This document shows positions 105 to 64,000 of a DNA stretch of 64,000 nt, piece by piece. This DNA comes from Tubiluchus corallicola (lineage: Eukaryota > Animalia > Priapulida): positions 558,001-622,000 of the forward strand of contig JAQGDQ010000066.1 in assembly GCA_030141605.1 (NCBI GenBank), written 5' to 3'. The notes under the pieces are model-generated. The model worked only from the letters and a program-made list of their open reading frames with translations, had not been told where the DNA came from and searched no databases. The translations under genes and the position numbers were made by a program. Position 1 is the first letter of the stretch. The number at the start of each line of letters is the position of its first letter.

Positions 105-282
105 ATTTATAATCTGGTCTTGTTGATCTAAGCTGTTCGAGTCCAAATTTTTCAAAAGTGGCTCTGCATGCATCAACCAATCATTGACCTTGTTATGTGA
201 ATCATGAAACTCTTTTGCCAATGGGAGTGCTTCTTCCATCTGCTGCAGCATATCTAAACTTTTTACATTCAAATCAGTGTAC
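105..282 (-). CDS. Spectraplakin exon: spectrin repeat (YTDLNVKS...QDQIIN)
   Basis: ttgcag|G acceptor, |gtatgt donor; phases 2/0. Confidence 0.9.
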
Positions 283-42200: not shown

Positions 42201-45200
42201 AGACAGCTTGCATTTTCTCATCACTGAGACTTTTTTGAAATTCAAAAAAAAAACCTAAGTTAGAAAACGTACAGCATATGACTGTTAACATACAGGAAAC
42301 TTAAAAACGTGTATATAAAAACATTATCTTAACAAGTTAACACACACCTGTTAGCAGCTTCGATGGCCTCATCATTTACAGGTGGAATGAGAAAGCAGAC
42401 AGAAGGTACAAGTCCTTCTTGTCGTGATGAATTCCTCACTTTCCATTTTGTTGCCTGGGAATTGTCCAGTAAAACACATTCCTCGTCTTTCCTGATATTC
42501 ATCTAAATTACGGAAAAAATTAATTGCCAACTGTATGTGGTGCACACTTCAAATATATTTTCTATACAATACGGCATTCTGCAAGCCAGGATGCAGCATT
42601 CAGCAACAGGTCTACTTAATGTATATGGCTGTGGCAGGATCGAAACCTAGTCTGTCATCAAAATAAATCTCTAAAAGGAGATTCTGAACCAATACATTAT
42701 AGTCACCTTTGGATGAGCAACACATCATTTCCCCAATACAGTACATAGCTGAAAGCAGTATGGCAGATAAAAACCAAGCAGGAAACGATCTACTTACTAA
42801 CCAGGTTCCACACTGCTTAACTTGAGTTCTTAATACATACTGTGACTATTCTTAGCTATTCCACACTTTTCTCTTATCCTAACAGTAGTATAATATTAAC
42901 ACTTACTGTTGACCACTCTTAAGAGCATAATATTATCACTTTGCCAAAATAAACTGCCAAAATTAATTTTCACAACATTTATGTAATTTCAACAACAGTA
43001 TTTCTTAAACTCACAAACACCTGCTGCTTAAGCTCTGAAATATCATGCTTCACTACTTTACGCGTGTCCACTAAATAACAAAAAATATTGTAAAAAATCA
43101 AAGGTGAACTGAAAATAAGAAATACATAAAACACTCACGTGTACTTGCTTGTACGTGCAGAGTGCAGTCACTGGTCTTGGTTGACTAAGTTTGTGTCGGC
43201 GAAGTTTCAATGGTACGATTTCACGACTGCGTATCTGAAGCGACTGCACCATTTCTTCATGTTGTTTCATAGTTTCTCTCATCTCCTGTAAAAATGGACA
43301 ATGTGGATAAACAAGTATAATGTGCACGTAGACAATACACTGAATGCAGGGGAACTATGTATGCTATCATAAGCAGCAAGCTCAAGATGCAATAAGCCAT
43401 GCAAAGAGGTAAGGAGTTGGCACAGCAGTCAGATAAGCATGTAGGTTATAAACAGCTTGTTTGATGAATTTTATTAGGGACTTCTTTTAGAAGGTGACAA
43501 CATGACAAAATTAACATTTCAGTGCTTTAAGATGGATCAGAAACTTGCTGTTGTAACACAGTTTTTCAGCAAAAATTTACCGTCACTGAAACCAATTGTC
43601 ATTAAATGACAACTATTAAATAAGGTCAAACTACTAGCCCATCTTTTACAAAATATATAAAGGTGTTAACAGAAAGCACTTTGATAATACTGAGGTAATT
43701 CTTAACAAGAGTCGTTGCAATTAATAAAAAATCCCACAATCAAGAAAAGAACAATGACATGGCATTTTAATCCACCACTGTGGACTACCTTCTGATAAAA
43801 AGAACAAATATAAACAAAAATATAAACCAATAAAACTGCAGAAAAACAGCACACACCAAAGAACAGAATCACTAAAACTCCACAATAAATACGAAGCACA
43901 TGAGAAAAAGCAGTAGTCACAAAGACACAGAAGAGTACATGAGAAAAAGCAGTAGTCACAAAGACACAGTAGCAAAAAGCACAAAACGTCACACAGCACT
44001 TCAATGTGTATACGTTTTGCATTTTTGTAAACGGACAAATAAGCTTATACAAAGAGGATGTAATTTTAAAACCAGTTTTTAAGCAGTGAGAACAATAATA
44101 TTGTCATGAAAAATGTAAACTAACCTGCATTTCGCGTAGGTAGCGTTCACCTTGATCTATACTAATCTCTTCTTGTCCGTATTGTCCTTTCAACAACTCA
44201 ACGCTCTTGTGTAACCAATTCTCACATTCGGCAACATCCGTAAAGTATTTGTGATATGCTGATGCGTGTTTCAGATGTGTTTCTAAGCACATTGTTAGTT
44301 GAAGCAGCCATGACCACTGTGTCTGCATTGTTGCCATATAAGCCTGAAGACATGAACACAACAAATAAACAACAATTCACACAGAATTAAAATTTCAAGG
44401 ATGTCACAAATATTCCAAAGTTGTGAAGCACACATAATTACAAGTTAATGACCTGTAGCAACAATTAAGTGAAAACCAAATTGAATTTATCACAGAAAGT
44501 GACTTAATTAATATTTGGTGAAAATACAACTGTTTTCGAAAAATTTGAAAAAAAACGCAAGCAGAAAAAACTTTTACACAAAATTTTAATGAAAGCTAAA
44601 CATTATTAGTGCAGTGCATATATGTGCCATCCACTACATTTCACTGCTTTTCTACACACAATCCTGCAAGCCGAAATCAAGCACCCAACGGCAAGTTTTA
44701 CTCATCAATCAACGCACATGCCTCTAAAGTGAGCCACTGAACCGGCAAAGGTGTCGCAGCCATGTTCAGATGTGTGTACATCCTATCTCTATAAGGAAAA
44801 CAGCCAGAATCAGCAAGGCAAGAATGAGAGGTTCACTCATCCATTAACTGGCTAGCCTTGGCATGACTGTTAACTTCGGTTGCCAAGCACAACGCTTTAT
44901 GGCGCCTTTCAGACTAGACAGTTTTCTCTGAGAGTTCTCGCAATGAATAAAGCTTGCCTGCAAGAAACTCACGAGAGAACTCTTACCGACTCTAATAAGT
45001 TAATCATGCAGCCATTGCACCTTGCACTGTGCTTGACTTGCAAAGTGTGCTGCAAATTACAATTAACATTAACCTTAATTTAGAAAAATTGCATAATTTT
45101 GCTACATACCTCTATTGTTTTTGATGCGTGATGACCTCCTAGCACTAAAGCTTCACCTTTGTCCTGAACAGAGTTAAACTGTTTTTCACGTGCCTCGAGC

Positions 45201-48200
45201 TCACTCATTAGAGTCTGTTGCGAAAAATGACAATTTTAGTAAAATTACGTAACAAAGTTTCACTAAGTAATACTTCAGTGTTATCAATACTTATGCTGCA
45301 CTATGGTTATGTTTTAACTTGGAAAGTAAGGGTAGCAATTGTCAAAAATCTAATTAATACAGTTTTATATTTGTGTCCATTTATCTGAGAAAATAAAGCG
45401 ATTAACGGCTCAATGTTTGCAGTACACCAAAGTTTTCAAACCAATATTTTAGCAATTTAAAAGAATAAATATTTTATACTCATATAAGAAATGTACTAAC
45501 AGCATAAAGTCACAAAACAAGCTTGCTTTCACAATCAATGAGTAAATATTAATTTTTAGCTAATTAAGCTACCAAGTAACTAAGAAATTGCATTCGAATT
45601 CGTTTTATGAAGAAACATTCGATCCAGGGTTTTAGAAATGATCATGCTGTGTTCGTAAGCAGTAGTACAGCACAATGACAAAATAAACAATAGAACAAGC
45701 CAGATATTTTAAAGAAACATGTAACGTGGCAATTTCGTGGCCTTAATTGAGCTTTCATAGAACTGCAATATAGAAAATGTGTGAAAAAGATTTAGCCATA
45801 TACTATGCAGACAATCATATTTACGAAAAATAAAAAAAGCAGTGTTTTGATCTAGATTAGTGGTAAAACAAGGTAGAAAACATGCAACATGATTGAAACT
45901 TTGGGAAGCAAATGCACCAGCCATGCATTAAGTACACGTTACCAGTGCAAAAAGGACTGACAGACAGTAAAATTCTAACCTTTGACGGCGTTATTTCCCC
46001 CTGTGACAGTAATGAAAAGGAAAAATAAACCTTAAATTAACTTTAGAGAAAACTAGTCTTTTAAAATCAGTCTGAATGTTTTAAAAAAGTAATTCACATT
46101 TTAGCTGCTAGAGAAAACTAGTCTTTTAAAATCAGTCTGAATGTTTTAAAAAAGGAATTCACATTTTAGCTGCTTTTCTTTTTCTTGTCAGTGCACATTA
46201 CAAGAAATCACACAGAAAAGCACTTTCAGAAAATAAAAAAAATTCATGAAAATATTACAAATCTCCTTTATATTATCAAATACATGATATATTTTTTCAA
46301 TGATATAATCAAGTGCACTACGAATGTTTTACACTTACTTGATAATAACGTTCGATGTCAGATATTGGTAGACTCTTAGAACTCCAGTCTCGTGCAATTT
46401 CTGCTTCCTCTCTTTCATTCAGCCACATCAGTTCTGTTGTTGCGGCTTGTATGAAATCATACAGCGACTCAAGACTGACTTTGCGTTTGATCGCTGCATC
46501 CTGGAAGCATAAACAAACACTGTTAATTACTGTATGCTAAAGTATGTGTCAGTATATGTTAGGTAATTATATAAGTCGACATACGACCTATGTGACTTAT
46601 GACTATTTGACTTTACAACCTGAGTGGAACATAATTAACTAATTATATAAAACCAACTATAACTCATATTTCTATCTATTTTTTTAAACAAATTAACTAC
46701 AAATTGCTATCTGCTTCGACAAATTCATTGTAGGCGCTGCCATACTTAGGGGTCTTGATTGTAGAGGCGCACCATTTTAATGTATGAGTCTGACTTTCAT
46801 CCTATTCATCTTATGACCAATCTGCCAGAACAAACTGTGGTGGTCATAAATCGACAGCTGCCTTTAACTTTTGAGCTATCAAAATCACAGCTTGAGTCAC
46901 AGACTGTTACATCACAGTCATACATGTTTCCACGCATGGAATCGTCAACTTATGATGGTTCAGAACTCTAAATTACAAACAATGGTTCTTACTGTAGAGT
47001 AATTAATTTACAAACATTTTAAACAGATGTTAGTTTTACTAATCAAAATTGTATGTACACCAGTCAGGTCTACATTACTCTACATTACTGTTGTTCTCTT
47101 ACAAAATATTTGATACATCACATTTACGACCATACAGGTGTTAGATTCCTAAAATAAACTTACAAAGCTGAAATGATAACCAAAATGAAATTAATTACAC
47201 TGATTAATTCATAATATTTACCATAAGTTGAGAGTACTGCGTCTCTAATTTTGAAAGATGCTGTACATAGAGCTTCTGTTCCTGACCCGTCAGCGTGTTC
47301 TTGCCAGCCACGCACTGATCAACTTGGGTCCGAAAATCTACAATTTGCTGGTAAAGCTGGCGATGTTCTTCCAGAAAATGTTGAACTGATGGTAAATCTT
47401 CACCCCATTTTGACATCTCCATTATGTGCTAGATTTAAAGACAACGGAAATAATTTCAATCACACATAAATCAGCTTGCAATTACAATATACATTAGTTA
47501 AAAAGAAAGTAGTAAAAAGTACTTTTTAGGTCACGCCTTAAAATTTTAAATCGATACAAACTTGTTGGTCACACAAACAATCTATTTGATTAATATTAGC
47601 AGTCTGAGGTTTATAAATTTAAACTCTGGGGTTTATTTAGCTTCTTATCCATACTTGAAATATTAGTAATTCACATTATTTCAGATAAAATTTTGTAGGT
47701 TGCTAAAATAGTTGTCAAATGTCATTGACACACTTTTTCTGAAACATAAATTAGGTTTACATAAAAGTCTAGAAATTGCAATCTGCAAATTTTTAAATTA
47801 CCATTTTGCTTTCTGTCCAGCGTATACACTCTTGCAAAAATTTAAATACTTCGTTGGTCTCTATGATGCGCATTTCGGACACGACCTCCGTCGTTCGACT
47901 GACCGTCACCTCCTCAGTAACAAACGACTTCTTGTTAAGAGCTAGCACCACATTTGTATGGTAACGGGCACGCAAGTCTGTCATTCGTTTATGTAAAAGT
48001 TGAGCTCTGGTAAAACAACAAATAAAATTGTTCTCGTATTTACAACACTACAGAGATAAACAACGAAAATCAACATTCGAGGTCAACATGTCTGCAAAAA
48101 ACTAGTTGACAGATATAAATAATTTACCTTTTAATGTACAAAAGATAATTCAGGTCTTTTCACTTTGACCAACACCTTATGCTACTAAAAGCATACTGCT

Positions 48201-51200
48201 TGTTTCGACAGTGCTCAAACAATCTTGTTTTTCATAATCTGCAAAGCTTCCACCCAACTCTCATGAGTAAAGCAATATTTCAAAACTAATTCCAGAAATA
48301 GGATTATTACCCATAATGAAATTTATGCACTAAATCGGTTTGAAATGCAGTATGTCGATTTCCTGGCGAACTAAGAGAGAAAAATTTTATTGTGAAAAGC
48401 ACTACTTAGCAAACTACATTGACTTATTGTCATTAAGAAAATACTAATTATCTTTTTCTGATAAATGTTGTCAGTAAAGGTAGAGATGTCTACATATCTA
48501 AATTTGTGTGTCATTTGGATCGTTTCAATGGTTAGTGAACAGGAAAATCGATTAGGTATTTCAGAATGTTTTAGTTGTTTCAGAATATTTCTTGCTTTTC
48601 ATATTACAAATCCACTTATTTCCTGCACATTATCCTTATGAAATGACTACTTACTGTTCTATGTATTTGTCAGCATTTTGATGTTTGCCCTCTTTCAGCG
48701 TGTGAGTATCTGTAAAAATATCTTGCAGGATTCGCTCAGCATCCTTAATTGCTGCTTCCAATTGATCACAGTTCCGCTTGGCATCCAGAGGATGGATGCG
48801 ATTCACCCGTTTCTCCTCCTAGAAAATACCAACCAATGGTGCTAAATTACGTCACTAATTAATGTACAGTAAATAAGGGGCCACCCACCCAAAACGCAGC
48901 GTTCTTTTTAATTTAGGGGCATATAAAGAAACGTTCTATATCTTTTTTAATTGAGTGGTAAATCAAAAACATGCTCAGGCCCCTAATGAACAAATTGCTG
49001 ACTAAGCCACTGAGAGACAAAAAAAATCTGATAAACTTTTTGCTGGTATTATTATAGTGGTACACATACATAACATTACAGTACATAATATTACATATTA
49101 AGCACAAACTAATGGAACCAAAATGCAACTCAAAATTCTCATTTAACAGTGATTTGTTCCACATTATTCTTGTTTATGAACAAATTAACTTCTGGTGTCT
49201 TGAACTTTTTTATAAAACAAGAATTTCACACCAAAAGCATTTTTGTACTTCACAAAAACTGATTTATAATTGAAATGTAAACTGAGAGACATTCTTGCAA
49301 ATGTATTAGACTTTAGAACACACACTTTAATAAAATGACATTTTGGACAATCAGCTTGGTATACACTTGTATCAAAACTTGCTCAAATATTCCATAAAAA
49401 AGAACTAGATGTTGCCCATAATTTCTTTTTTGCATCCGTATCGCTAATTGTACACATTATTGTTTATTAAGAGAAGCAAACCTCACCTCTGCAACTTTGC
49501 GCTCTACTGCAGTTATTCTCTCATTTGCAACCCGTAACTGTCGATTTACCTTCTCTCCTAGCCTCTGCATCCGCTCCAACCTGTGCAAAAACCGAACAGT
49601 TTTCGTCTGAATTAACGCACTCAAAGAAGCAAGGTTTTCATTCCCCGAATATGCCATGATTATTATGCACATTAATGGTAAATCCAAAGGTAATAAGTGC
49701 CCTTACTGCCACATACACACCATGAAACAGTAACAGCTGGTGAAACAGTAACAGCCGGTCTTTTTCTATCATTGCAGCCAAGAAATATATACATCTTCTT
49801 CTGCGTTACTTGCTTTTGACACAACTCTTTATGCCCAAGAGTGAATTTTAGTTTCACTTGTGAATTATCCAATATGAAGAATAACAAGTTTTCCCATTAC
49901 AGTTTTTAGTACACAAGCAGTACTTAGAATCCAAAACACAGGCAGTACATAGAATCCAAAACACAAGCAGTACTGAGTCCAAAACACAAGCAGTACTTAG
50001 AATCCAAAACACAGGCAGTACTTAGAATCCAAAACACGAGCAGTACTTAGAGTCCAAAACTCAGGCAGTACATAGAATCCAAAACACGAGCAGTACTTAG
50101 AGTCCAAAACACAAGCAGTACTTAGAATCCAAAACACAGGCAGTACTTAGAATCCAAAACACAAGCAGTACTTAGAATCCAAAACACAAGCAGTACTTAG
50201 AATCCAAAACAATAACACTCATGTTCTACATCTTATAAACTCTGCACTTGGCAATGCATCTTAGAAGCATCACTTTAAATAATCTATTAGGTAAACGTAC
50301 AAAAAAATAGGAAACTGTTTTGCTGGTGGGACAAAAATCAACAAAATACTGCTCAATTTATTCACCTCAATAGGTACAGAACACAGTAAACATGATTGAA
50401 AGAAATGCAGTGTATTCACGTAAGAATGTAAGTGGTCGTTGGGGATGAATCTTTACATTACTCAGCAAAGTTTCATTTGTCAACAACAAACAAGGTGAGG
50501 TGCCGCTCCATTGACATAATAAGGTGCCGGCCGACGCCATCAATCAGCTTTCATGACACTATAACGCACAGAATAAGTGTACACAATGTTTGTGAAACAG
50601 TCCATGTTTGTTGATCCTAGTTTCAAACACCAATAAAGCTGTTGTAAACATAGTACAGTATCGGAGAATTACAAACCGACTGCAAAACACAAACTTAAAA
50701 CATCAGCAGAATTTGTAAATAAACACAAAAATGTGTTTGTTTCGGTTTACAACTTAAATTCACACAATTTTCAACACATTAATTGCAGGAAGAACAACGA
50801 AAACAGCAATTTGCTGGTATTTGAACTGCGATTTGCCCAAAATTTGCAACACCAGCAATCGCTATTTGCACATAAACTACGTGCAGCATGCCATGAGATA
50901 CCCAACGTGATCACTATTTGGCGAATTACAGATTACGATTACTAGACAGCAAGTCTGAAAAACCAGACAGTTGACAAAAAATCTAAAATGCTAAAACAAT
51001 TTAATATTAATTAGCCAGTGACTCAAAAGCAAAATAAGCAAAAGTATCAGGTTCCGGAAAACGCCTCTCTCCTAAGAAAAATACGGGAGAAGAACTCAAA
51101 TACGGGAGTGCTTTTGATTAAGTGATTCACATCAAACATTAAAAACCAGTCATTTAACAAACTAACATGCACAAAAATTCAATAGGAACCACAATAACTT

Positions 51201-54200
51201 GGTAAAACCAAGAAATCTGCTACATATGATGACACTAACATTCTGCTACAAGTCAGGACAACTTTTGAAAATCACTAATATAAACTAACACTTTCTAGAA
51301 AGATATTAGAGGTAAATTTGCTCAAATGTGTTGTTACCCTAAGGGTCCAAATTCCATCAAAATACCGTTAACAGCAGAGGAACGTGTGCATACCAGACAA
51401 TGACGTATAAAGCAAATAATCAGATGTATGTACTGAACATAATGAAAAACAGAACATCAGAAATAAAAGTGCCAAAAGATGGCACCACCTGTGCAGTTAT
51501 GATAAACAAGTGCCTACAATCGTACAGTAGTAAAAACACAAAACCAGAAAAAATGTGCTTTGATTAGTCAAACTTAGTTAAAATCCAATCAACAGCCAAA
51601 CCCTGACATATGAACGCTCGACAAACTCAAAGCCTAACAAAAAAATCAATGGCCTTATCATGAAATGAGAGTCTAAAAAAATTCAGTAGACCTCTAACAA
51701 CACAGCACTTCACACTACTCGACCCAATTCAATTCTAGTTTTGAAGGGAACTCAAACAGGAAAATCCAGGCAGTGATGTTGTTACCACAAGACCTTACCG
51801 ATTCTCACCTCTCATTGCCTCCAGATGCCTCATCTACCTGACGCTTCATTCTGGCTAATCTTTCTTTGAAATCAAGAGAACACCTTGGTATGAGGATGAG
51901 TTTAAGAGTTCAGAACTTCAGCTGTGTATTTTATTTGCTGATGGCCGACTTCCCCAGGCCAAAATTTTTTGCCACACCTCAAATATTAAGTTCCTTTCCT
52001 AAATTACTATATTTTTGAAAGAAATCTCATTTTAACATAAATCCAAATGTTGCTTTAGCCATTCAGTTTGCAACAAATATGGGGATTGCACTAATGCAAT
52101 GTGGCGGCCCCATCTTATAATTTTGTATCAGTGTCAGTGCTGCTGAAAAAGACTAAGACCTGCAGCTTTTAATTCCATTGTGCCACTAAACAATGTGAAA
52201 TTCTATTGGTAGGACTGTATCCAAAAATGTAGGAAACTTATTAATTACTTCATAATACCTGGAAATTTCATGATGAAGAGCCAGCTCTCGTTCCTGAGTA
52301 AACGCCATCAGGCGACCCCAGCTACGATTGATCACTTCATAATGCAGCTGCGGTTCAACCTCGTACTGACCGGTAGTTCCGGGTCCCATGGCCTGTATGT
52401 CTCGATTTAGGTTATCCAACTTTCTCAGATCTTTTAATCTCGGTGGAATGTCATGCGATTTGAACCGCTGAAAGTCTTGCAACAATCGCTGCAAATCAAA
52501 ATTTATGAAATACAGTTTATCAATACATGTAAACTACGCATACATTTTGACTTTGGAAAATTATTACCAAAAATTTTTAAAGAAATTTTACATGTAGTAT
52601 TTATTTAAAAACTAATATGCAGTTTTTCATAAAAACACATTAAAAACTATTTAGATTTGCAAAATATTTCAAAACAACTTCCAAAATTACAACCACTTAA
52701 CATTGGTTGATGGTGCATTATAATGGTCATTATTACCCAAGGCCTTTTTGATGATTTAAACATGGTACAGGAGCCTAAATCTGTTATATTACAACTGATA
52801 AATTAGACAAATAGTCGGTGGAATAGCTCTATACTAAATCCAAATAACAAATCTTGTCAGATTAAATATAAAATTAACTTTTAAAAGCCAGATGGCTTGT
52901 AGACAAGAAATAACTTGAAATAAACATACAAAACAAGGAACCACAATTATTGTGCATTATTCTAAATTGATACAGACCTGCATTTCTGGGATACTGTTAG
53001 GAAAATTTCGCTCTACCATCATCGAAGCTGCTTCTTTGCACCACTTCTGTAGGTATCCAGCCAGTTCTCTATATTCATCGTATTTTGCTTGCCTCTCCTA
53101 GTTAAAGATAGTCACATTTTTTAAATAAATGCTGAAGTAAAACATTACACACAGCTCTGTCAAAGGACAAAGCAACAGAACCAATCTCTCATTTATCGTA
53201 ATCGTTATTGCAAAAAATTCTAGTCAATTTGCTAGAAAGGGAGATTAAAGTGATAACGTTTCATCACTTAGTTTCAGAGAGGGCCTGTAGGGAATCAATA
53301 AATGCAACTAGCAATCCTCTAACAGTAAATTTTTAAATTTTACCCCTAAAATTAATACGAGAGACCAATTAATTGATTTATATTCTTACTCTTGCCTAAG
53401 AGTAATCTAGCCTGTAAATGACGAGGTTTGTAATTTTGCTGTCACAGTAGTAAATGCTAAAAAACTGATGTCCATGTGAGGGGACCAGTACCAACCTATA
53501 AGAATTGGGAGAGAAGCAAAAAATGCTGCTTGCCACCCCCTCTCACGTCTTACAAACTGGCTGCTTCCCTCAGTTGGACGACACTAATTTTCTCGGTTAA
53601 CAAATGACTTAAATCTGGCTAAAGAATTTGTTTATATGATAAAGCTTCTTTTAATAAATTCCCCACTTGTTACTGCTATACAGCTGTTTACATATTTCAT
53701 TTCTGGCAATTCAACTTTCTTTGAACGTTTACAGGAATTGCAAATGAATGAGCTGCTTCTTTCTTGCTAACACAATTGATATTTCACGCGTAAGTTACAA
53801 ATATTTCCCTCTGTTTTTTTTACCTCTTAATAAAACTGAAGGAGCATGCACCATAAGACAAATGATAACACAAATTTACGTCAAAATAAGACTGCATGTC
53901 CAAGTATTCATCCAATACAATTTTAAAAATTCTTTGAAAATGATCAAGTTTCACCCCTGTCGCAAAATCCCAGGCTGTAGAGGCTCACTTGCAATAAGCA
54001 ACACTGTATTTTCATCACTTATTTCTTAGCACAAGAACTCTAAATTTAAGTAAAGACATTTACTATAAGTTCTTCTTAACATGACGATTATTCTCACTTG
54101 TTTTGGACTTGATGTTCTTAATTGTACTGAAAAAGCAGGAAATACTTACGCTAAAAATACACTGGTTGTACTTAAAAAATAACAAACACATGTACTTACA

Positions 54201-57200
54201 CTACAAATTACTCTGGTTGTACTGAAAAGTAATAAATACTTACGCTATCCTGCAGGGAGAACTGCGGTGGTGGAGGCTCAGGAAATACGTCATACAAAGA
54301 TGATATATACGTGATCATGGATTTTTCATCTGGCGTGGAAACATCTACATCTATAAAATACAAATATACAGATTAATTAGATTTCATGACTTAACTCAAT
54401 ATAGTCAACCATGACATTATGGTAAAAAATCGGACCACAAAAAATTGCCTCAAACAAGTGCAATTTAAGGTAAAGGCTACAGTAAAAATGTGAAGATATG
54501 ACCACATGAAAGCATGTCCAGGGAAAACAGGATAACTAAATTACTATTTATGTAATTACCTAGAAAAATTAAAACGAATACTACAAATAAACTGCCGGTG
54601 TTTAGGGACCACTGACTTGAGTTTTTATTGAGAGTGCTTGACTTTTTATAGAATCAGCGATAAAAAAGTCTTAACATAGCAAATGACCTTTAATGGGCTA
54701 GGGACTGCAAGACTGACCCCCCAAATTAGACCAACTAATCATCCCAGTTTGCACAAAAAGCTGAGGCAATAGCCCAGATCTGAAAGCAGTATTCCTTGTG
54801 GGGTTGTATAGTTGATTTGTAAAAGTACAGCATAGCTGAACTGCAGCGCATATGGGGAAAATCAGCATTTTCAGTAGCGTTTAGGGAATAATGTGCGTGG
54901 CCTATCATTCGAAACCCTCACCTTCAAAAATAGACTACAATTTGGCACTCTACAAACTGAAATTCATCCTTATGGGTTGTGTCAGGACAAGAGTTCAGCT
55001 AAAAGATAATGCTCTAAGAGACAGCAAACCAGTAGAGGCCCCTCTCTTAGCTACTATATGTTAGGGCACATGCACATTCTCCTTAACCCCAACAAGCAGC
55101 AGTGTAGCCGTTTTCCTGTTAGCCACATCTATTTGCTAATCAGACCCACCACTGCTTAACTTTACAGTTTGCAGCCAATTACATCATGATCCTTATTTCT
55201 CTCACCCAAATAATGGGTAGGCTTAACAAAAAAATTTTTAACCATAAAAGTCAGAGATAGAGTGCTACAGCAACTGGGCAATGTAGTAAGTAAACGCCTG
55301 ACATGTATCGGAGTGTTTTATTGAATATTTACTAAATAGTGCTGTAAAATTATTACCTTCGGGATCCAGTAGACGGGTGACACCGAATTCTTTTTCGGCC
55401 ACACTAAATGTTTCTTGTAACCGTTTCCTTGGCGGCATGGTACGCAATTTTTTAAAATCTATCAGGTCCGGCCTGTTAAATAAAAATACATTGTAGTAAT
55501 GGTATAACAGCACAATAGTGCCAAATTCAATAGCTTTTTTAAAGCTATGCACAATGAACTGCACAGCAATTCTAATAGTGTTTCTAATAATACAAGTTTT
55601 ATGTTCTAACCTTACATTGGTAACCAGTACAAAAAATAATATTTAAGAAAGTACAGTGTAACTACTATGATACTATGTTTTAGCAGGTGTTGCTGTTCTT
55701 TCAAGATCTACAAGTGTCAGTTAATGGAAAATATAAAAAAAATACTTAGAGATGAACTTATTCACTAAGGAAACAGCACCTATCTAAATGTTATTATAAT
55801 GATATAGTACACGTGAAGCTTTTTGTAAGTCAAACAACAGCCAGCTGTAATGTAAATATGAGCAAGAGTTACTATCTTTGGAATGTTCAGTCAAACAACC
55901 ACTGGGATATGATGATACAGTGTACGAACTAACATTAAAAGCTAATCATACTATTACTAATGAATACAAGCAATACCAAAATAAATTGAATACGCTTGTA
56001 AAACTTGCTAAAACTAATTACTACAAAAATAAAATAGAAAATTATACAAATAATATAAAGAAATCCTGGACAATAATGAAAGAAATCATGAGCAAAGCCA
56101 AAAAACCAACTACTATTCAACTTAATATCAATAATAAAATTCTGAAAATAAGAGTATAATAGGTGACAAAATTAGTGAACATTTAACAAATCCTGGACCA
56201 TCTTTTGCAAATCAAATTGGAAACTTAAACAAACACACGTTATTCAGAACATTTAATGGAAATTAATTATCATAATTCCTTCTTTTCTGAATCGGTCAGC
56301 CCTGCTGAGGTAATAAATAACTAAACCACTATTTTGAAATGGTAATATTTTAATTTTAGGAGATTTAATTTCATTTAATCCCTTCATAGACATGTACAAA
56401 AACATGTTGGTTTAAGTTATTTCCAACTACTTTTAACAATCCAGAATTTATTTTGGACAGGTTATTGTTTTTTCTGACGTCTTTCACACTTTTCTCTCAT
56501 AATCTTCGTTTCACACCTCATGGAGGTTTGACATAATGGCTTAAGGCCCCTTCACACTATGTGGCAAATGCCACAAATATAGTAATTTGACTCAGAAGCA
56601 TTTCTATTAATTTTATTTTATTTTTTGTTTTTTCAACTATGCTGTATTTGTAATATGTAGTTTAGTAGGTGAAATAAACTGAATTTGAATTTATTATTAT
56701 GATGATGTCATGATGTCTTCTCTACAAAATGAATCAGTAGTGACAGAATGTAGCTAAAAGTAATTTCGCCACATACGAGAAATGATGAGGAGAAGGACAT
56801 TTCCTTGTAGCTGTGTATCAGGGTACTAGGGTAGCTGTGTATTACGTTACAACAGAAAAGCGGATTTGAATGTACATGCTTGATCAGCAGTAAAATAACG
56901 TATATCAAAAACACTATTCTTCTGCCATTCTGAATGGGACCATAGTTATGGAGCTTTTTCTGTTTAACAAGTTCAGGCCGGACTTTAATCCCAATTGTCC
57001 AATATGATAATTTTTGGCTACGTGTTAACTTATAAGCTGAAATATATAGGACCTCCGGTAACCAAATACTTAAAGAATCCAAGTGTAACTATCCAAAACC
57101 ACTTAAACACCAAAAGATCTCTTAAGGGTCAGACAGGCTGTACAAAGATGTAACAAAAAAAAATCAATGATTCACACAGGGTGGGGTTAGTGTGTTTGCC

Positions 57201-59365
57201 CAGTGGGCATAGATAATAATTGGACAGGTTGAAGAGCGTGCCCAGGCGTACAAACTGGGCTAAGTATACAAACCAGGGACGTGCTGATGTAAACTTTCAA
57301 AGTGAAAAAATAATGAGCTTATGCGGAAGAGAAATTAAACGCTCTCATTCCGTTTTCATTACCAAGCTTGTATCTCCCTGTCCAGAAACTGGGGAAACAT
57401 TCAAACATGTCAAAACTTAATCTCAGTATAAATCCTGGACAATAAATTTAATAACTTAAATCACAACACTAAAATGTAACTAGACTTATAATAACAGGAC
57501 AATGTAGGACAAACAGGATAACTACAGCAGGAGAACTAATTACAAATTACTTATTATACGGACTTCTCGTACATATGTTACAAAGTAATCTACTTAGATC
57601 TTAAAATATTGGAATTTTTTCCTTTTAAATGCTGAAAACACTAATGTAAAGTATAACAGCACTCATTAGAAAGAAGGCTTAGCATTAGATGATGCAACTG
57701 GCATTTTTTTTCATAAAATTGTTTCCGTGACATACAAAATTTGCACCGCAGTAGACTACCAAATTTTTTTTACAATTTTACATTTATCAAAATACGAATT
57801 AAAGGGCCTAGGAACTGCAACATTTCAGTTAATTAAGGAATTAAGGCAGAATAAAGTCACTAGCGACCACAGGGAAACATTAGTTTCACATCAGTCAAAA
57901 GGCCCGCAATCCACGCCCTGACGTTTTTAATTACAAGGGCCAAAATGTGCAGTTTATTATGCACTTATTGTCTATTCAGGTATTTTGCTTTAAGCTCTGC
58001 GCCTCGTAAGCACTGAAAACGACATAATAATGACTTCGTTGTAACACCTTAGGCTTAAGGCCACACTAGAATTGCATGCCATATACAGCAGGATGAGATG
58101 CTGCTAAACTAAGAAATCAAATGTTGCTCAAGGTGCAAAAATGATGAAGATGCATTTATTGCACACATAGTAGAGAACACTACAATCGCGTAATATTGTA
58201 GGTCCCAGTAAACTGCCCTCTGGGACTCCTTGAAAAGACAAAATAGTTGCCAATAATTTTAGAATAACAATCCAGACAAATTTGAAAATCGAAAGTGATA
58301 AAAGACCGAGGAAATGTATTCTAAGTGACTCATGGTTGAATTGCTAAAGGAAAAATCATTAATTAAACGTGACTAGTAGGTAGCAACTCAAGAAAAATGG
58401 TGTACAAGAGAATATAAAATATCACACAATTCAACCACAGGTCAACAGTAGAAAGATTTACTTCCTGATTTAAAGATTACTAATAACAGATCCACAGGAT
58501 TTGCTGCAAACTGTTGCCCTGTTATTTTAAACATTTCTAAGGCTGTATAAAAGTGAATGAAGTAGGCCTTATACGAACTAAAATTGTTAATGAATTCATT
58601 ACGTCACTCCAACAAATGCTGATATCCTAAGTTTCAGTGCCCATTTGTAATATGTATTAAACACATTCAACAGCCTTCTGTGCACAAAAAAATATTTTTC
58701 AACAGTAGTTTGGTGGTAAACTCATAGTGGCCCTATTTACTCAACCATAACATGTAGTATAAATCTACAGTGCTGCTTCTTGGACACAGGAAACAAGCAA
58801 GATAGAAGATTTGGAAAACAAGAGACATATTTGTTAAAATCCTAATGAGCAGATACACATTGCAGTGAGTACACACTTATGTTTGCAGAACTGACTATTT
58901 CACTCTTGGTGGTATGTGAACCAAATTCCCAACAATGCTGTACATACAATACAGAAAAGTATGGATAATCAATTAGTTACACACACATTTTTATTAGTGT
59001 TTGAAAAGATGCAGTTTTTTCACAAAAAATTCCTTTTAAAGTCAACGAAATGTTCTGCAGCAGAGGCCCTGTGCCGTAACCAAGTGACTCTGCTTCAACT
59101 AATTTATACAGATGCATGTGCTTTAAATGAATAAAAATAAAATGCATGTTGGAATATTTGAAGACCATTTCAGGTAATCTTACCTGTTTCTATGTAGAAT
59201 AGCTCCTAGAGCTAGACCATCTCGCCAAGATGAACCAAAGTCACGGACTTTTACTCCTGGATATCCTAGCGTTGTCCTCTGGGCCCAGAGTAGCAGAGCA
59301 TCATGTGCGCTGACGTTCTGCTGCTCCGGTTGCCCAGGATGCGAAGGGACAACAATGTCCGATAT
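105..59365 (-). CDS. DST/MACF1 (shot): Spectraplakin (dystonin/MACF1/Short stop/VAB-10 family), 34-exon partial gene model: CH2 - plakin/SH3 - plectin repeats - spectrin repeats; continues beyond the left edge
   Basis: Family motifs: CH2 ([16 protein letters not shown]; [14 protein letters not shown]; [15 protein letters not shown]), plakin domain ([37 protein letters not shown]), SH3 ([12 protein letters not shown]), plectin repeats (DPxTG..SL.EA...G), spectrin repeats ([32 protein letters not shown]). All 34 exons have AG/GT borders with matching phases and sum to 32,577 nt, divisible by 3. Confidence 0.96.
743..876 (-). CDS. Spectraplakin exon: spectrin repeat ([10 protein letters not shown]...FIKQR)
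   Basis: ttgtag| acceptor, AG|gtattt donor; phases 0/2. Confidence 0.9.
1004..1413. mobile_element. Putative MITE (non-autonomous DNA transposon, TA target duplication, Tc1/mariner-like)
   Basis: Left end TA-cattcatatctcggtttgccg and right end ctgcaaaccgagatatgagtg-TA are inverted repeats (21/23 match including the TA); no internal ORF. Confidence 0.72.
1717..2043 (-). CDS. Spectraplakin exon: spectrin repeat ([10 protein letters not shown]...QDQFM)
   Basis: acgcag| acceptor, |gtattc donor; phases 0/0. Confidence 0.9.
2387..2562 (-). CDS. Spectraplakin exon: spectrin repeat ([12 protein letters not shown]...IEHQQ)
   Basis: ctttag| acceptor, |gtgcgt donor; phases 1/0. Confidence 0.9.
2700..7002 (-). 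CDS. Spectraplakin large exon (4,303 nt): tandem spectrin repeats
   Basis: 1467-aa ORF of helical repeats with recurring W-L motifs; ttttag| acceptor (phase 0), G|gtatga donor (phase 1). Confidence 0.95.
7045..7345. repeat. Intronic diverged tandem duplication, about 153-bp period
   Basis: agtctagttgcag at 7045 and 7198; tgtaatctactaggcaactaataccacacc is present in both copies. Confidence 0.85.
7462..7680 (-). CDS. Spectraplakin exon: spectrin repeat (EYHTLLNEY...SWLDQ)
   Basis: ttgcag| acceptor, |gtatga donor; phases 0/0. Confidence 0.9.
8178..8451 (-). CDS. Spectraplakin exon: spectrin repeat (YDDVSRQC...FQEESQ)
   Basis: atgtag|G acceptor, |gttagt donor; phases 2/0. Confidence 0.9.
8568..8710 (-). 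CDS. Spectraplakin exon: spectrin repeat ([13 protein letters not shown]...DLQNR)
   Basis: Translated by hand; ttaaag| acceptor (in-frame alternative cag 9 nt inside), AG|gtgaga donor; phases 0/2. Confidence 0.85.
9299..9331. repeat. Compound microsatellite (ATG)6(ATA)5
   Basis: Directly visible; it explains the spurious [14 protein letters not shown]. Confidence 0.9.
9375..9521 (-). CDS. Spectraplakin exon: start of spectrin rod ([21 protein letters not shown]...LEEIQ)
   Basis: Translated by hand; ctgtag| acceptor, |gtacat donor; phases 0/0. Confidence 0.87.
12496..30120 (-). CDS. Spectraplakin giant exon 2 (17,625 nt, 5,875 codons): acidic low-complexity linker plus plectin/plakin repeats, containing the 301-aa tandem array
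   Basis: 5960-aa ORF; atacag|GAA acceptor and AAG|gtgagg donor, both phase 0. Confidence 0.92.
17420..26570. repeat. Coding tandem array: about 10.1 copies of a 903-bp (301-codon) unit
   Basis: Marker aactgatttatctgta recurs at 17521, 18424, 19327, 20230, 21133, 22036, 22939, 23842, 24745, 25648, 26551 (exact 903 spacing); units differ only by scattered substitutions. Confidence 0.97.
29270..29810. repeat. Coding duplication, 2 x 270 bp (90 aa), diverged
   Basis: [14 protein letters not shown]...[23 protein letters not shown] occurs twice; ccaaattt anchors at 29453 and 29723. Confidence 0.88.
30410..35742 (-). CDS. Spectraplakin large exon 1 (5,333 nt): plectin/plakin-repeat region
   Basis: 1890-aa ORF with many DPxTG-x-SL-x-EA-xx-G plectin repeats; ttgcag| acceptor (phase 1), CAG|gtacta donor (phase 0). 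Confidence 0.93.
36007..36124 (-). CDS. Spectraplakin linker exon ([18 protein letters not shown]...TLSTKS)
   Basis: Translated by hand; ttctag| acceptor, G|gtatat donor; phases 0/1, needed to bridge into the phase-1 acceptor at 35742. Confidence 0.85.
36439..36741 (-). CDS. Spectraplakin exon: end of plakin domain ([21 protein letters not shown]...AEGIE)
   Basis: ttctag| acceptor, |gtgaga donor; phases 0/0. Confidence 0.92.
36909..37068 (-). CDS. Spectraplakin exon: plakin domain (CRGVEKASE...QFQPAM)
   Basis: tttcag|G acceptor, |gtaagt donor; phases 2/0. Confidence 0.9.
37909..38099 (-). CDS. Spectraplakin exon: plakin domain ([11 protein letters not shown]...[11 protein letters not shown])
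   Basis: ttgcag| acceptor, AG|gttaga donor; phases 0/2. Confidence 0.9.
38995..39133 (-). CDS. Spectraplakin exon: plakin domain ([11 protein letters not shown]...HENFI)
   Basis: ctgcag|G acceptor, |gtaagt donor; phases 2/0. Confidence 0.9.
39571..39737 (-). CDS. Spectraplakin exon: plakin domain ([13 protein letters not shown]...[13 protein letters not shown])
   Basis: Translated by hand; gtgcag| acceptor, AG|gtaatg donor; phases 0/2. Confidence 0.9.
40250..40383 (-). CDS. Spectraplakin exon: plakin domain ([10 protein letters not shown]...VVQHK)
   Basis: ctgcag| acceptor (an in-frame tgtag lies 9 nt upstream), |gtattg donor; phases 1/0. Confidence 0.87.
41096..41273 (-). CDS. Spectraplakin exon: plakin domain ([10 protein letters not shown]...QAEGQ)
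   Basis: ttccag| acceptor, G|gtatta donor; phases 0/1. Confidence 0.9.
41690..41804 (-). CDS. Spectraplakin exon: plakin domain ([12 protein letters not shown]...KSWDLKQ)
   Basis: Translated by hand; taacag|G acceptor, |gtacag donor; phases 2/0. Confidence 0.9.
42348..42502 (-). CDS. Spectraplakin exon: plakin SH3 ([22 protein letters not shown]...[12 protein letters not shown])
   Basis: Translated by hand; atttag| acceptor, AG|gtgtgt donor; phases 0/2. Confidence 0.93.
43139..43285 (-). CDS. Spectraplakin exon: plakin domain into SH3 (EMRETMK...[11 protein letters not shown])
   Basis: ttacag| acceptor, |gtgagt donor; phases 0/0. Confidence 0.92.
43898..43969. repeat. Intronic duplication, 39-bp period
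   Basis: acatgagaaaaagcagtagtcacaaagacacag occurs twice. Confidence 0.88.
44125..44343 (-). CDS. Spectraplakin exon: plakin domain ([16 protein letters not shown]...LREMQ)
   Basis: cttcag| acceptor, |gttagt donor; phases 0/0. Confidence 0.93.
45110..45214 (-). CDS. Spectraplakin exon: plakin domain ([35 protein letters not shown])
   Basis: Translated by hand; caacag| acceptor, |gtatgt donor; phases 0/0. Confidence 0.92.
46044..46173. repeat. Intronic direct tandem duplication, 2 x 65 bp
   Basis: tagagaaaactagtctttt...ttttagctgc starts at 46044 and 46109, one mismatch. Confidence 0.92.
46339..46500 (-). CDS. Spectraplakin exon: plakin domain (DAAIKRK...[18 protein letters not shown]...RYYQ)
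   Basis: Translated by hand; ttccag| acceptor, |gtaagt donor; phases 0/0. Confidence 0.92.
47222..47428 (-). CDS. Spectraplakin exon: plakin domain ([15 protein letters not shown]...YSQLM)
   Basis: atctag| acceptor, |gtaaat donor; phases 0/0; WGxDLPSV motif. Confidence 0.92.
47802..48006 (-). CDS. Spectraplakin exon: plakin domain ([12 protein letters not shown]...WTESKM)
   Basis: taccag| acceptor, |gtaatt donor; phases 2/0. Confidence 0.9.
48655..48818 (-). CDS. Spectraplakin exon: plakin domain ([21 protein letters not shown]...DKYIE)
   Basis: Translated by hand; ttctag| acceptor, |gtaagt donor; phases 0/2. Confidence 0.9.
49487..49580 (-). CDS. Spectraplakin exon: plakin domain ([11 protein letters not shown]...RKVAE)
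   Basis: gcacag|G acceptor, |gtgagg donor; phases 2/0. Confidence 0.9.
49911..50210. repeat. Intronic minisatellite, about 12 x 25 bp (acacaagcagtacttagaatccaaa)
   Basis: Head-to-tail copies with minor variants and no spacers. Confidence 0.93.
51809..51883 (-). CDS. Putative 75-nt cassette (or alternative start) exon: (R)[24 protein letters not shown](R)
   Basis: Pyrimidine-rich tract ending ccaag|, open frame, AG|gtgaga donor; phases 2/2, matching the host intron. Confidence 0.45.
52259..52488 (-). CDS. Spectraplakin exon: plakin domain (RLLQDFQRF...ALHHEISR)
   Basis: ttgcag| acceptor, AG|gtatta donor; phases 0/2. Confidence 0.9.
52978..53097 (-). CDS. Spectraplakin exon: start of plakin region ([19 protein letters not shown]...FPNSIPEMQ)
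   Basis: Translated by hand; actag| acceptor, |gtctgt donor; phases 0/0. Confidence 0.9.
54122..54247. repeat. Three imperfect 44-50 bp copies, each carrying a copy of the exon's 5' splice site
   Basis: ttgtact...tacttac(g/a)cta occurs three times; on the minus strand TAG(C/T)GTAAGTA at 54244, 54200 and 54150. Confidence 0.75.
54244..54350 (-). CDS. Spectraplakin exon: end of CH2 ([36 protein letters not shown])
   Basis: Translated by hand (not in ORF track); ttatag| acceptor, |gtaagt donor; phases 1/0. Confidence 0.93.
55357..55472 (-). CDS. Spectraplakin exon: CH2 (PDLIDF...VTRLLDPE)
   Basis: taacag|G acceptor, G|gtaata donor; phases 2/1. Confidence 0.93.
55880..56320 (+). mobile_element. 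Degenerate non-LTR retrotransposon (LINE) ORF2 fragment, region between endonuclease and RT
   Basis: [26 protein letters not shown]...[11 protein letters not shown], then after a disruption [14 protein letters not shown] and SFFF..VSPAEV, resembling the linker upstream of RT in CR1/L2-like LINEs; antisense to the host gene. Confidence 0.7.
59184..59365 (-). CDS. Spectraplakin exon: CH1-CH2 linker and start of CH2 (ISDIVVP...ILHRNR)
   Basis: tttcag|ATA acceptor (phase 0), AG|gtaaga donor (phase 2); CH2 motif. Confidence 0.93.
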
Positions 59366-62300: not shown

Positions 62301-62524
62301 AGTACGAACTAGCTAGTGAAAATAATTTCATGATACAATTAATAACTAGGAGATAACTCTTAATGGGAAGAATAGATAGCATAGTATTTGCTTTATTGTA
62401 TAACTTGATGCATTTCGTTTTCACGCCGCTACTACATAGATAGTAATTGTTAGTAATAGTATTGTTAGTAATTCAAAGATTTGACTAGAAATTCCAGCTA
62501 TTAATGTACCACCCTCCAACGAAC

Positions 62525-63031
62525 CTTATTCTTCCGTTTCCGTTTTCTCGGTCGTTGATTCACGGCTACTTGCTCTGCACTCCCATCTTCCATTACCATT
62601 TGAGGACCTCCCCATTCTGGACCGGTCAGCATACACAGACGGCCCTCGCCGAACCCCAACTTGCTGAATTTGTACGTGTACATGTCTTTCCTTCCCGCAG
62701 GTACAGTAGTAGTAGCTTCACTCTTTTTCAAGGCAGACTCAGGTGAGACACGCGACACATCCTCTTGCTTCACAGGCGTCAACCGGGTGTTAGTTTTCCC
62801 CGATTTTGACTTAACACGCGCTGGTTTAACACGTTCCTTATTCACAGGTATCACGTAATATATCTTCCTCTTGGTGAGATGAAGATACTGGCACAACCAC
62901 CACAACCAGAGAGTGAATAGGAAGATGGCTACTGTAGCAACGCTGACGAGTACAGCGCTGAAATCAGGTTCTGGCGGTGGAATGCCGACCGACACGTCGT
63001 CGGGCGCAGCCGGCCCACCTCCGTTATGCAT
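62525..63031 (-). CDS. Candidate alternative first coding exon B with N-terminal single-pass TM helix (169 aa); alternatively a stand-alone 176-aa TM ORF ending at 62501
   Basis: GC-rich ORF in AT-rich surroundings; start context aaaccATG; hydrophobic run FSAVLVSVATVAIFLFTLWLWWLC followed by TKRK; AAG|GTTCGT donor in phase 0 after KRKRKNK. Confidence 0.62.
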
Positions 63032-63066
63032 GGTTTGACACCCGGGGGCAAGACCGCAGCTCTTAC

Positions 63067-63174
63067 TTCACTACCGTGGCGTCGTTTGCTGTCTTTTCCT
63101 CGCTTAGACATCATGGGTGCGGTATCAACGTTTACCGTGCAAACAACCTTCTTAACTCGTAAACTTTTGCTCAT
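63067..63174 (-). CDS. Candidate alternative first coding exon A (36 aa, basic: MSKSLRVKK...KRRHGSE)
   Basis: ATG at 63174, 108 nt open, then GAA|GTAAGA donor in phase 0, matching the phase-0 acceptor of the CH2 exon. Inference only. Confidence 0.45.
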
Positions 63175-64000
63175 AGATTGTAACTAAACAAACACATATT
63201 CGCCTAATCGTGTATGCGAAAATTCACTGTTGCTGACATGTACACTGTCAAGCAGCTCATGCGGGGACTTTATCAAACTACTGATGTTTACATTACCTGT
63301 TTACAGTTACATACACCTGCACTTTTACCTGGGCGCACTTGAGTCAAGGTACGTCGAATCAAAAACACAGAAAAACATCAGCAAAGTGGAATGCAGGCCC
63401 AGTAATCGAGACCAAACAAAAATACAATTGCCATCCTTTGTGAGACACAACGCTAAAGGTCGTCTTGTTGTTTGGTCCTTGACACATACATGTATAACAT
63501 GTATGTGTCCTTTAGTGAGCCCGTCCGTACATTGTTTTCAGATTATAAAAAGTATTAAGTGTCAATCGAAATAGACTGCTGAAAATTTCAAAAAATTGTT
63601 AAAATGTTGCCAAATGGAATGATTGATGACAAGTAGAAGCCTTAAGATACCAAAATATTCTAAGTTTTGCTACCATTGCTTCAGCTACACAAGACTTACA
63701 CTGTATGTAGCCATGTCGGTATTTTTTGCAGACAATTTAGAAACTAACTGTGCACTGTTAAGCTTTTTTAATATAGCTGTCAATGTTCATAGTTACGATA
63801 AGACCCGCATCTTTTTACACCAAATCTTAATTCTAGCAGCAGTTTCTGGTTTCTATGGAAACATGAGTAGCACAGCCCCCATTCTATTAACAAGACTCTG
63901 GACCGTTCACTCTCTTTCAAATACTTCCTTTCAGCTAACATGGATTTCAACTAACAGGGTATGACAAACACCTACGCAAGCTGTTGACTTGATCGCTAGT

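What the first reader, a model, noticed from the sequence alone, without database searches (positions are those of the whole stretch)
62501..63031. Candidate membrane-anchored spectraplakin isoform: TM first exon spliced directly to CH2, skipping CH1
Seen: an ORF with a good start context (aaaccATG), a short acidic/Pro-rich N-terminus, an uncharged ~24-residue helix (about 62891-62962) ending in Cys, basic residues right after it (TKRK), and an NLS-like RPRKRKRKNK immediately before a phase-0 GT donor at 62524. The next acceptor (59365) is phase 0 and starts ISDIV, the CH1/CH2 junction. I found no CH1 exon in between. Known: CH1-less alternative N-termini exist for Drosophila Shot-C/D, MACF1a3 and BPAG1a3; the TM isoform dystonin-a2 keeps both CH domains. 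Inference: an N-out/C-in signal anchor joined to CH2 only would be an unusual combination, tethering a giant cytolinker to ER, nuclear envelope or plasma membrane with weakened actin binding.
Basis: partly seen in the sequence, partly recalled or inferred. Interest (0 to 1): 0.8.

Follow-up and report, generated by a model that had tools for sequence, protein, structure and literature searches.

The report
Membrane-anchored head for giant cytoskeletal linker
Inside a giant cytoskeletal-linker (spectraplakin) gene of a probable priapulid worm lies a protein-coding stretch that likely serves as an alternative first exon, swapping the main actin-binding domain for a predicted membrane anchor, a design also seen in horseshoe crab gene models but not found in the papers searched.

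Summary
Observation confirmed: a 176-codon ORF (63031-62501, minus) with one uncharged 24-residue helix, a phase-0 donor at 62524, and the phase-0 CH2 acceptor of a spectraplakin at 59365; no CH1 in the window. The ORF is too long for chance (2 of 3000 shuffles), reads as coding on both sides of the helix, and is intact in an independent DNA run. New: from Met117 it resembles the start motif of arthropod CH1-less ('C-type', Shot-PC-like) first exons (best of 66,125 window positions, though HMMER missed it), which sit in this same intron. It is therefore likely the C-type first exon with a transmembrane extension. No RNA junction could be tested. The combination has precedent: Limulus and Tachypleus RefSeq models join hydrophobic segments to CH2 without CH1, and dystonin-a3 is lipid anchor plus CH2. 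Verdict: new variant of a known kind; TM-CH2 isoform about 0.6.

The parts
62525..63031 (-). Candidate alternative first coding exon (169 codons) of the spectraplakin; C-type (CH1-less) lead with N-terminal TM extension
   Evidence: splice inferred, not observed
62891..62962 (-). Predicted single transmembrane helix, residues 24-47, ending in Cys; acidic N-flank, basic C-flank (predicted N-out/C-in signal anchor)
62621..62683 (-). Met117 and motif resembling the start of arthropod C-type leads (M-x-x-Y-x-F-x-K ... R-L-x-M); possible internal start of a TM-less product
   Evidence: positive (top of 66,125 positions; 4 of 3000 shuffles), negative (HMMER)
62519..62527 (-).
62591..62599 (-). Second phase-0 donor ATG|GTAATG, PWM 7.4; would drop residues 146-169 with the basic tail
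62526..62555 (-). Basic, NLS-like tail just before the 62524 donor
   Evidence: function untested
63067..63114 (-). Upstream 16-codon ORF in another frame with phase-0 donor GAA|GTAAGA at 63066: candidate second short lead; if unspliced it is a 61-codon uORF overlapping Met1 and ending at 62929
   Evidence: 11 of 2000 stop-free shuffles
62392..62503 (-). Tandem stops at 62503-62498 and AATAAA at 62397: the route of the unspliced single-exon rival
59184..59365 (-). First CH2 exon of the spectraplakin, phase-0 acceptor at 59366
105..59183 (-). Rest of the spectraplakin in the window: CH2, plakin domain with SH3, two giant plectin-repeat exons, spectrin-repeat rod; runs off the window

Best explanation
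The ORF is likely an alternative first exon of a spectraplakin gene in a probable priapulid worm, and would splice in phase to the CH2 exon to give an isoform that lacks CH1 and starts with a predicted single transmembrane anchor. Shown: ORF, helix, phases, absence of CH1 in the window, coding-like statistics on both sides of the helix. Inferred: a promoter in the CH1-CH2 intron starts a transcript; Met1 is used; the helix inserts as a reverse signal anchor (acidic 23-residue N-terminus outside, basic flank inside), leaving a disordered ~100-120-residue linker, CH2, plakin domain, plectin repeats and spectrin rod in the cytosol. With CH1 gone, F-actin binding should be weak (literature), so the membrane helix would replace actin as the N-terminal attachment, tying microtubules or intermediate filaments straight to a membrane (ER/nuclear envelope or plasma membrane; which one is not resolved). 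Evolutionarily it looks like the old ecdysozoan C-type first exon (start at today's Met117) extended upstream by a membrane anchor, as happened, apparently independently, in horseshoe crabs. TM-less sister products (Met117, or the upstream 16-codon exon) may coexist.
For: ORF length: 2 of 3000 shuffles. Frame-specific coding signal from a model trained on this gene's own exons, against stop-free nulls: whole ORF 47, 10 and 78 of 1000 for orders 2, 3, 4; residues 1-23 17 of 2000 and residues 48-116 2 of 1000, both in the TM frame, and Met1 is the only in-frame ATG upstream of Met117. Helix not explained by base composition: 30 of 5000 stop-free shuffles of its 72 bases reach the same hydropathy. 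No good in-frame acceptor that would cut the helix out (best 1.5; true acceptors median 6.0). Both donors score within the range of 21 true donors (3.1-11.3); 3 of 176 intronic GTs reach 7.0. A two-block PSSM built from 12 arthropod C-type leads ranks Met117's motif first of 66,125 six-frame positions, 4 of 3000 lead shuffles reach it. Such leads lie 0.5-5 kb upstream of the CH2 exon in metagenome loci (L014, L018, L022, L023, L039, L052, L076); L039 shows CH1, lead, CH2 in order and L027 shows lead and CH2 contiguous in one frame. Precedent: Limulus XP_013790928 and Tachypleus X1-X4 (XP_076320044/47/48/49) have two hydrophobic segments, the C-type core (E 7e-9 to the lead profile) and CH2 without CH1, while Tachypleus X5-X8 carry CH1. 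DNA run X1 covers the ORF without indel; its 2 listed differences are both synonymous.
Against: The motif match is weak in absolute terms (16.5 bits against 15.4 for the runner-up and 18.9-32.3 for training leads), its form was chosen after I saw the likeness by eye, HMMER profiles of the same leads did not find it, and the second arthropod motif (RK-I/V-RKTTT) is absent. The helix codons and residues 117-145 show no coding signal (1840 and 1155 of 2000), though the real CH2 exon also fails this test (275 of 1000). Hydrophobic stretches are common in this gene's introns: 14 stop-free segments reach 2.29 in 20,795 bases. Out-of-frame ATGs at 63114/63111 open a uORF overlapping Met1 and have their own phase-0 donor, so Met1 needs leaky scanning or a start site within about 80 bases. 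AATAAA lies about 100 bases after the stop. No homologue of the TM part in 1.84 billion representatives (1 spurious repeat hit) nor in horseshoe crab leads; 0 of 13 other lead ORFs have an open hydrophobic extension.
Confidence: 0.6

Rival explanations
1. The region is the CH1-less first exon, but the products are TM-less: translation starts at Met117 (downstream start site, or re-initiation after the uORF that ends at 62929), or the 16-codon upstream exon splices from 63066 to CH2, or an intron removes the helix (63066 to 62889 is in phase).
For: Met117 matches the arthropod lead start and has a purine at -3; the short exon scores as coding (11 of 2000) with donor 6.7; 13 of 14 distinct CH1-less leads among 95 CH2-bearing proteins have no hydrophobic segment; helix codons show no coding signal.
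Against: Residues 1-23 and 48-116 carry the strongest coding signal and lie upstream of Met117 in the same frame; the acceptor at 62889 scores 0.3; 116 open codons upstream of the motif contrast with 0-27 in 13 other leads.
Confidence: 0.18
2. A separate single-exon gene (or intronic-polyadenylation product) nested in the intron encodes a 176-aa single-pass membrane protein that stops at 62501.
For: Stop only 8 codons after the donor, tandem TAA TAG, AATAAA at 62397; GC falls after about 62490, which fits stop or donor alike; ESM Atlas look-alikes are small single-pass proteins, all under 0.9 and so leads only.
Against: Same strand, same intron position and phase as C-type leads; two good phase-0 donors; motif likeness at Met117; AATAAA occurs at 1.29 per kb in this intron, so one within about 100 bases has roughly a 1 in 8 chance; no family or homologue.
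Confidence: 0.13
3. A GC/CpG-rich intronic or promoter island that happens to be open in one frame; the helix is how a G/T-rich stretch translates.
For: GC about 50% and CpG obs/exp about 1.1 against 33% in introns; chance hydrophobic stretches are common in introns; no homologue.
Against: Length 2 of 3000 at matched composition; frame contrast against stop-free nulls; helix 30 of 5000 at matched composition and only in this frame; 2 of 2 listed differences synonymous, none in 467 bases of the 5' part.
Confidence: 0.09

Closest known systems
Drosophila Shot C-type isoforms (Shot-PC, Shot-PH) and arthropod C-type leads
   Same: Own first exon joined to CH2, no CH1 (10.1101/122010 and PMC9320987, passages); arthropod leads sit in the same intron and share a start motif with Met117 onward; Shot-PH pairs this head with the plectin-repeat region, which this gene also has.
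   Different: No TM reported for Shot leads; 0 of the insect, springtail, spider or copepod leads examined has a hydrophobic segment; the window lead lacks the second motif.
Horseshoe crab spectraplakin models (Limulus XP_013790928; Tachypleus XP_076320044/47/48/49)
   Same: Hydrophobic segments upstream of a C-type core, then CH2 without CH1; the same Tachypleus gene also has CH1 isoforms.
   Different: Two segments with a Cys loop instead of one; no sequence similarity to the window lead; database predictions whose RNA support I could not see; no paper found.
Dystonin-a2/BPAG1a2 (mammals)
   Same: N-terminal TM from an alternative start, reported at ER and perinuclear membranes (PMC3279385, PMC3352950, passages; disputed according to 10.1101/122010).
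   Different: Keeps CH1+CH2; separate exon upstream of CH1.
Dystonin-a3/BPAG1a3 and MACF1a3
   Same: Single CH2 with reduced actin affinity; dystonin-a3 has a putative myristoylation motif and plasma-membrane location (PMC6975176, PMC3279385, passages).
   Different: Lipid anchor, not a transmembrane helix.
Plectin 1b
   Same: First-exon-encoded signal anchor tying a plakin to an organelle (PMC2426950, abstract and outline).
   Different: Mitochondrial outer membrane; plectin, vertebrate only; exon lies upstream of the whole actin-binding domain (recalled).

Membership tests
Spectraplakin gene | CH domain, plakin domain, spectrin-repeat rod, plectin repeats | tested here: met
   Pfam CH, Plectin, Spectrin hits; collinear tblastn to Priapulus, Tachypleus, Folsomia, Paralvinella proteins
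Spectraplakin gene | C-terminal EF-hands and GAR domain; upstream CH1 exons | not testable with these tools
   Both ends run off the window; no genome held
C-type (CH2-only) isoform | First exon upstream of CH2 with phase-compatible donor and no CH1 between | tested here: met
C-type (CH2-only) isoform | Homology to arthropod C-type leads | tested here: inconclusive
   PSSM top hit, 4 of 3000 shuffles; HMMER negative, second motif absent
C-type (CH2-only) isoform | Transcript joining the lead to CH2 | not testable with these tools
   No RNA holder listed; laid contigs show no joint there
Type III (N-out/C-in) signal-anchor protein | One hydrophobic helix of 20 or more residues near the N-terminus, acidic before, basic after | tested here: met
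   KD 2.29; flanks 0/4 and 5/1; AF2 helix; no dedicated TM predictor was available
Type III (N-out/C-in) signal-anchor protein | Membrane insertion and topology shown by experiment | not testable with these tools
   needs bench work
Dystonin-a2-type isoform | TM followed by both CH1 and CH2 | tested here: not met
   no CH1 between lead and CH2
Dystonin-a3-type isoform | N-terminal Gly2 myristoylation motif before CH2 | tested here: not met
   residue 2 is His; Cys47 at the helix end could be palmitoylated (inference)

The most novel reading that the evidence does not exclude
The CH1-less class of spectraplakin is a recurrent 'membrane instead of actin' head: the first exon in the CH1-CH2 intron has gained a membrane anchor several times independently (one TM helix in this priapulid-like worm, a TM hairpin in horseshoe crabs, Cys/lipid motifs in vertebrate a3 isoforms and possibly annelid leads), giving integral-membrane spectraplakins in invertebrates, none of which I found described.
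Probability: 0.4. Interest if true: 0.65.

Novelty: new variant of a known kind. Interest (0 to 1): 0.45.

Why it matters
The purpose of CH2-only spectraplakin isoforms is unclear: a 2022 paper says the Shot leads lack informative motifs (PMC9320987, passage). An invertebrate isoform that puts a transmembrane helix where CH1 would be, paralleled in horseshoe crab models, suggests these heads choose the attachment site (membrane versus actin) and gives a direct test: swap leads and watch localisation. It would be the first integral-membrane spectraplakin described outside vertebrates in the library searched. It remains a lineage-specific isoform of a known gene family, without transcript proof.

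Tried and rejected
RNA test: no RNA holder listed; X1 behaves as DNA (covers introns, no joints), X2 laid 1 contig on exon 52257-52404 and none on 59000-64000; this says nothing on expression of the lead. Homologue searches for the lead: 0 of 770 candidates at E<=1 among longer proteins; 1 hit in 1.84 billion representatives, a repetitive 1097-aa protein at E=5e-4 over 33 residues, dismissed; 0 of 217 metagenome stretches; Pfam none; Rfam none in 59000-64000; ESM Atlas only scores under 0.9 and none for the Limulus lead. HMMER profiles of 14 arthropod leads missed the window motif. Frameshift/assembly error between the upstream ORF and Met1 rejected: X1 contig 62707-63173 matches without difference or gap. 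Repeat origin unlikely: no second copy in the window, depth like neighbours. Extra cassette exon in 62480-59420: 2 weak candidates only. TM extension as general arthropod feature rejected: 0 of 13 genomic leads, 1 of 14 CH1-less leads; 48 more proteins added no new CH1-less lead. One search's output was cut around L057-L064, so those rows were not fully read. No whole genome was held.

Full report
Setting. The window holds most of one minus-strand spectraplakin gene: a CH exon at 59365-59184, plakin exons, two giant plectin-repeat ORFs and spectrin repeats. Over five N-terminal exons the protein is 167 of 253 residues identical to Priapulus caudatus XP_014680848 and 114-130 of 253 to seven arthropod and annelid proteins, so the animal is probably a priapulid or close kin (inference). 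No CH1 is in the window; anything upstream of 64000 could not be seen, as no genome is held.

63031-62501 gives 176 residues. Residues 24-47 are free of charged and amide residues, best KD 19-mer 2.29; flanks are 0 basic/4 acidic before and 5 basic/1 acidic after; an AlphaFold2 single-sequence model has one confident helix (24-57) in an otherwise low-confidence chain. The donor at 62524 and the CH2 acceptor are both phase 0.

Is it coding? A 188-codon open stretch was reached by 2 of 3000 dinucleotide shuffles of 63200-62480; the longest ATG-ORF in 20,795 intron bases is 106 aa. A periodic Markov model trained on this gene's large exons scores the ORF like true exons; against stop-free simulated ORFs the frame contrast was reached by 47, 10 and 78 of 1000 for orders 2, 3, 4. 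By segment: residues 1-23, 17 of 2000; 48-116, 2 of 1000; helix, 1840 of 2000; 117-145, 1155 of 2000; 146-169, 280 of 2000; the true CH2 exon, 275 of 1000, so the test has little power and a miss means little; the model had no TM helices in training. Hydrophobic stretches arise by chance in these AT-rich introns (14 segments at 2.29 or more in 20,795 bases), but only 30 of 5000 stop-free shuffles of the helix's own 72 bases reach it, and the other two frames are not hydrophobic throughout. Run X1, which behaves as DNA, covers 62366-63173 without gaps: 3 differences in one contig, of which the 2 listed are synonymous third positions, and 0 in the 467-base contig over the 5' part. That is weak support, and X1 may be related to the assembly's source.

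Splice signals. With a matrix from 21 donors of this gene (leave-one-out 3.1-11.3), 62524 scores 7.0, reached by 3 of 176 intronic GTs. A second in-frame donor at 62596 scores 7.4 and would drop the basic tail. A third at 63066 scores 6.7 and is phase 0 for an upstream frame opened by ATGs at 63174, 63114 and 63111; this 16-codon stretch also looks coding (11 of 2000). Unspliced, that frame is a uORF overlapping Met1. In-frame acceptors that could remove the helix score at most 1.5, against a median of 6.0 for 17 true acceptors (assigned by nearest AG, so a few may be wrong). AATAAA lies at 62397; the intron rate is 1.29 per kb (all). No RNA could be tested.

Comparison. Of 174 proteins (P0070-P0243), 95 had CH2, with 32 distinct leads: 18 before CH1 and 14 CH1-less. 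The arthropod CH1-less leads share two motifs, a start M-x-x-Y-x-F...R-L-F-x-x-G and a later RK-I/V-RKTTT. In 80 metagenome loci with the CH2 exon such leads lie upstream of CH2 in L014, L018, L022, L023, L039, L052 and L076; L039 has CH1, lead and CH2 in order; L027 has lead and CH2 contiguous (output cut around L057-L064). The window ORF from Met117 resembles the first motif. HMMER profiles did not detect it. A two-block PSSM from 12 arthropod leads ranked it first of 66,125 positions in the window's six frames (16.5 bits; runner-up 15.4; training leads 18.9-32.3), and 4 of 3000 shuffles of the lead reached it. The weight is in the place, since the top hit falls in the one ORF predicted beforehand; the test's form was chosen after seeing the likeness, and the second motif is absent. 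I read this as moderate support that the ORF is the C-type first exon.

Precedent for TM plus CH2. Limulus XP_013790928 has 382 residues with two hydrophobic segments directly before CH2. Tachypleus isoforms X1-X4 have the homologous lead (63% over 240 residues), while X5-X8 of the same gene have CH1. Both match the C-type lead profile at E about 7e-9. They are 1 of 14 CH1-less leads; 0 of 13 genomic leads have an open hydrophobic extension. The window lead and the Limulus lead do not align, so independent gain is the simplest reading (inference). These are database models; I could not see their RNA support.

Literature. Read as passages: 10.1101/122010, PMC3352950, PMC6975176, PMC9320987, PMC3279385; abstract and outline: PMC2426950. 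They give: C-type Shot, dystonin-3 and MACF1-3 have CH2 only and weak actin binding; dystonin-a2 has a TM before both CH domains (ER/perinuclear; disputed); dystonin-a3 has a putative myristoylation motif before a single CH; plectin 1b has a mitochondrial signal anchor; Shot leads were said to lack informative motifs. Searches for priapulid + spectraplakin, horseshoe crab + spectraplakin and spectraplakin + transmembrane + invertebrate + single calponin homology returned 0 papers; listings showed nothing on a TM plus CH2-only isoform. The library lacks most subscription papers, and I saw no supplements (the isoform figures of 10.1101/122010 may bear on lead features).

Mechanism. Most likely (0.6) an intronic promoter yields an mRNA in which this exon joins CH2; Met1 starts a reverse signal anchor, and the giant remainder faces the cytosol, tethering microtubules or intermediate filaments to a membrane with little actin binding. 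Rivals: TM-less leads only (0.18), a separate 176-aa membrane protein (0.13), chance (0.09). Several products may coexist.

Verdict. Real feature, plausible isoform, no transcript proof; new variant of a known kind, with database precedent in horseshoe crabs. Interest 0.45.

Noticed in passing
window 63114-63067 (-), donor 63066: A second candidate short, basic first exon (16 codons) overlapping the TM exon's 5' region in another frame; two alternative leads may share one GC-rich island.
   Followed up: partly
window 63328, 63316, 63296 (-): Three strong donor sites (PWM 8.4, 7.3, 10.0) within 33 bases upstream of the island; possible non-coding 5' exon.
   Followed up: no
P0063, P0099, P0121, P0127, P0173, P0228; L014, L022, L023, L027, L039, L052, L076: Arthropod C-type leads share two conserved motifs across insects, springtails, copepods and spiders, whereas PMC9320987 says the Drosophila leads lack informative homologies or motifs.
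   Followed up: partly
P0071 (Paralvinella model); L042:992, L043:960, L072:1919: CH1-less or upstream-of-CH2 ORFs that start with Cys-Gly-Cys and basic residues, a possible palmitoylation anchor recalling dystonin-a3; lead status of the L ORFs is inferred.
   Followed up: no
P0067, P0157, P0162-P0164: Horseshoe crab spectraplakin models with a two-helix hydrophobic hairpin and Cys loop before CH2; no paper found.
   Followed up: partly
window 35752-30068 and 30219-12334 (-): Two giant plectin-repeat ORFs (1894 and 5961 codons stop to stop), apparently separated by a short AT-rich intron; the second has an internal tandem array of about 903 bases (301 aa).
   Followed up: no
P0245 (Trichonephila model GFY44145): CH-less spectraplakin model with a hydrophobic N-terminal segment (KD 2.47); 1 of 80 distinct CH-less starts; may be an annotation artefact.
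   Followed up: no
window 55851-56159 (+) and about 49865-50150: An ORF that looks like a LINE remnant (recalled likeness, untested) and a short tandem repeat in introns.
   Followed up: no
window 52257-52404: Run X2 has one contig 11 letters different over this exon whose loose end reads, by eye, like the next exon (49581 onward): a related organism splices this gene.
   Followed up: no
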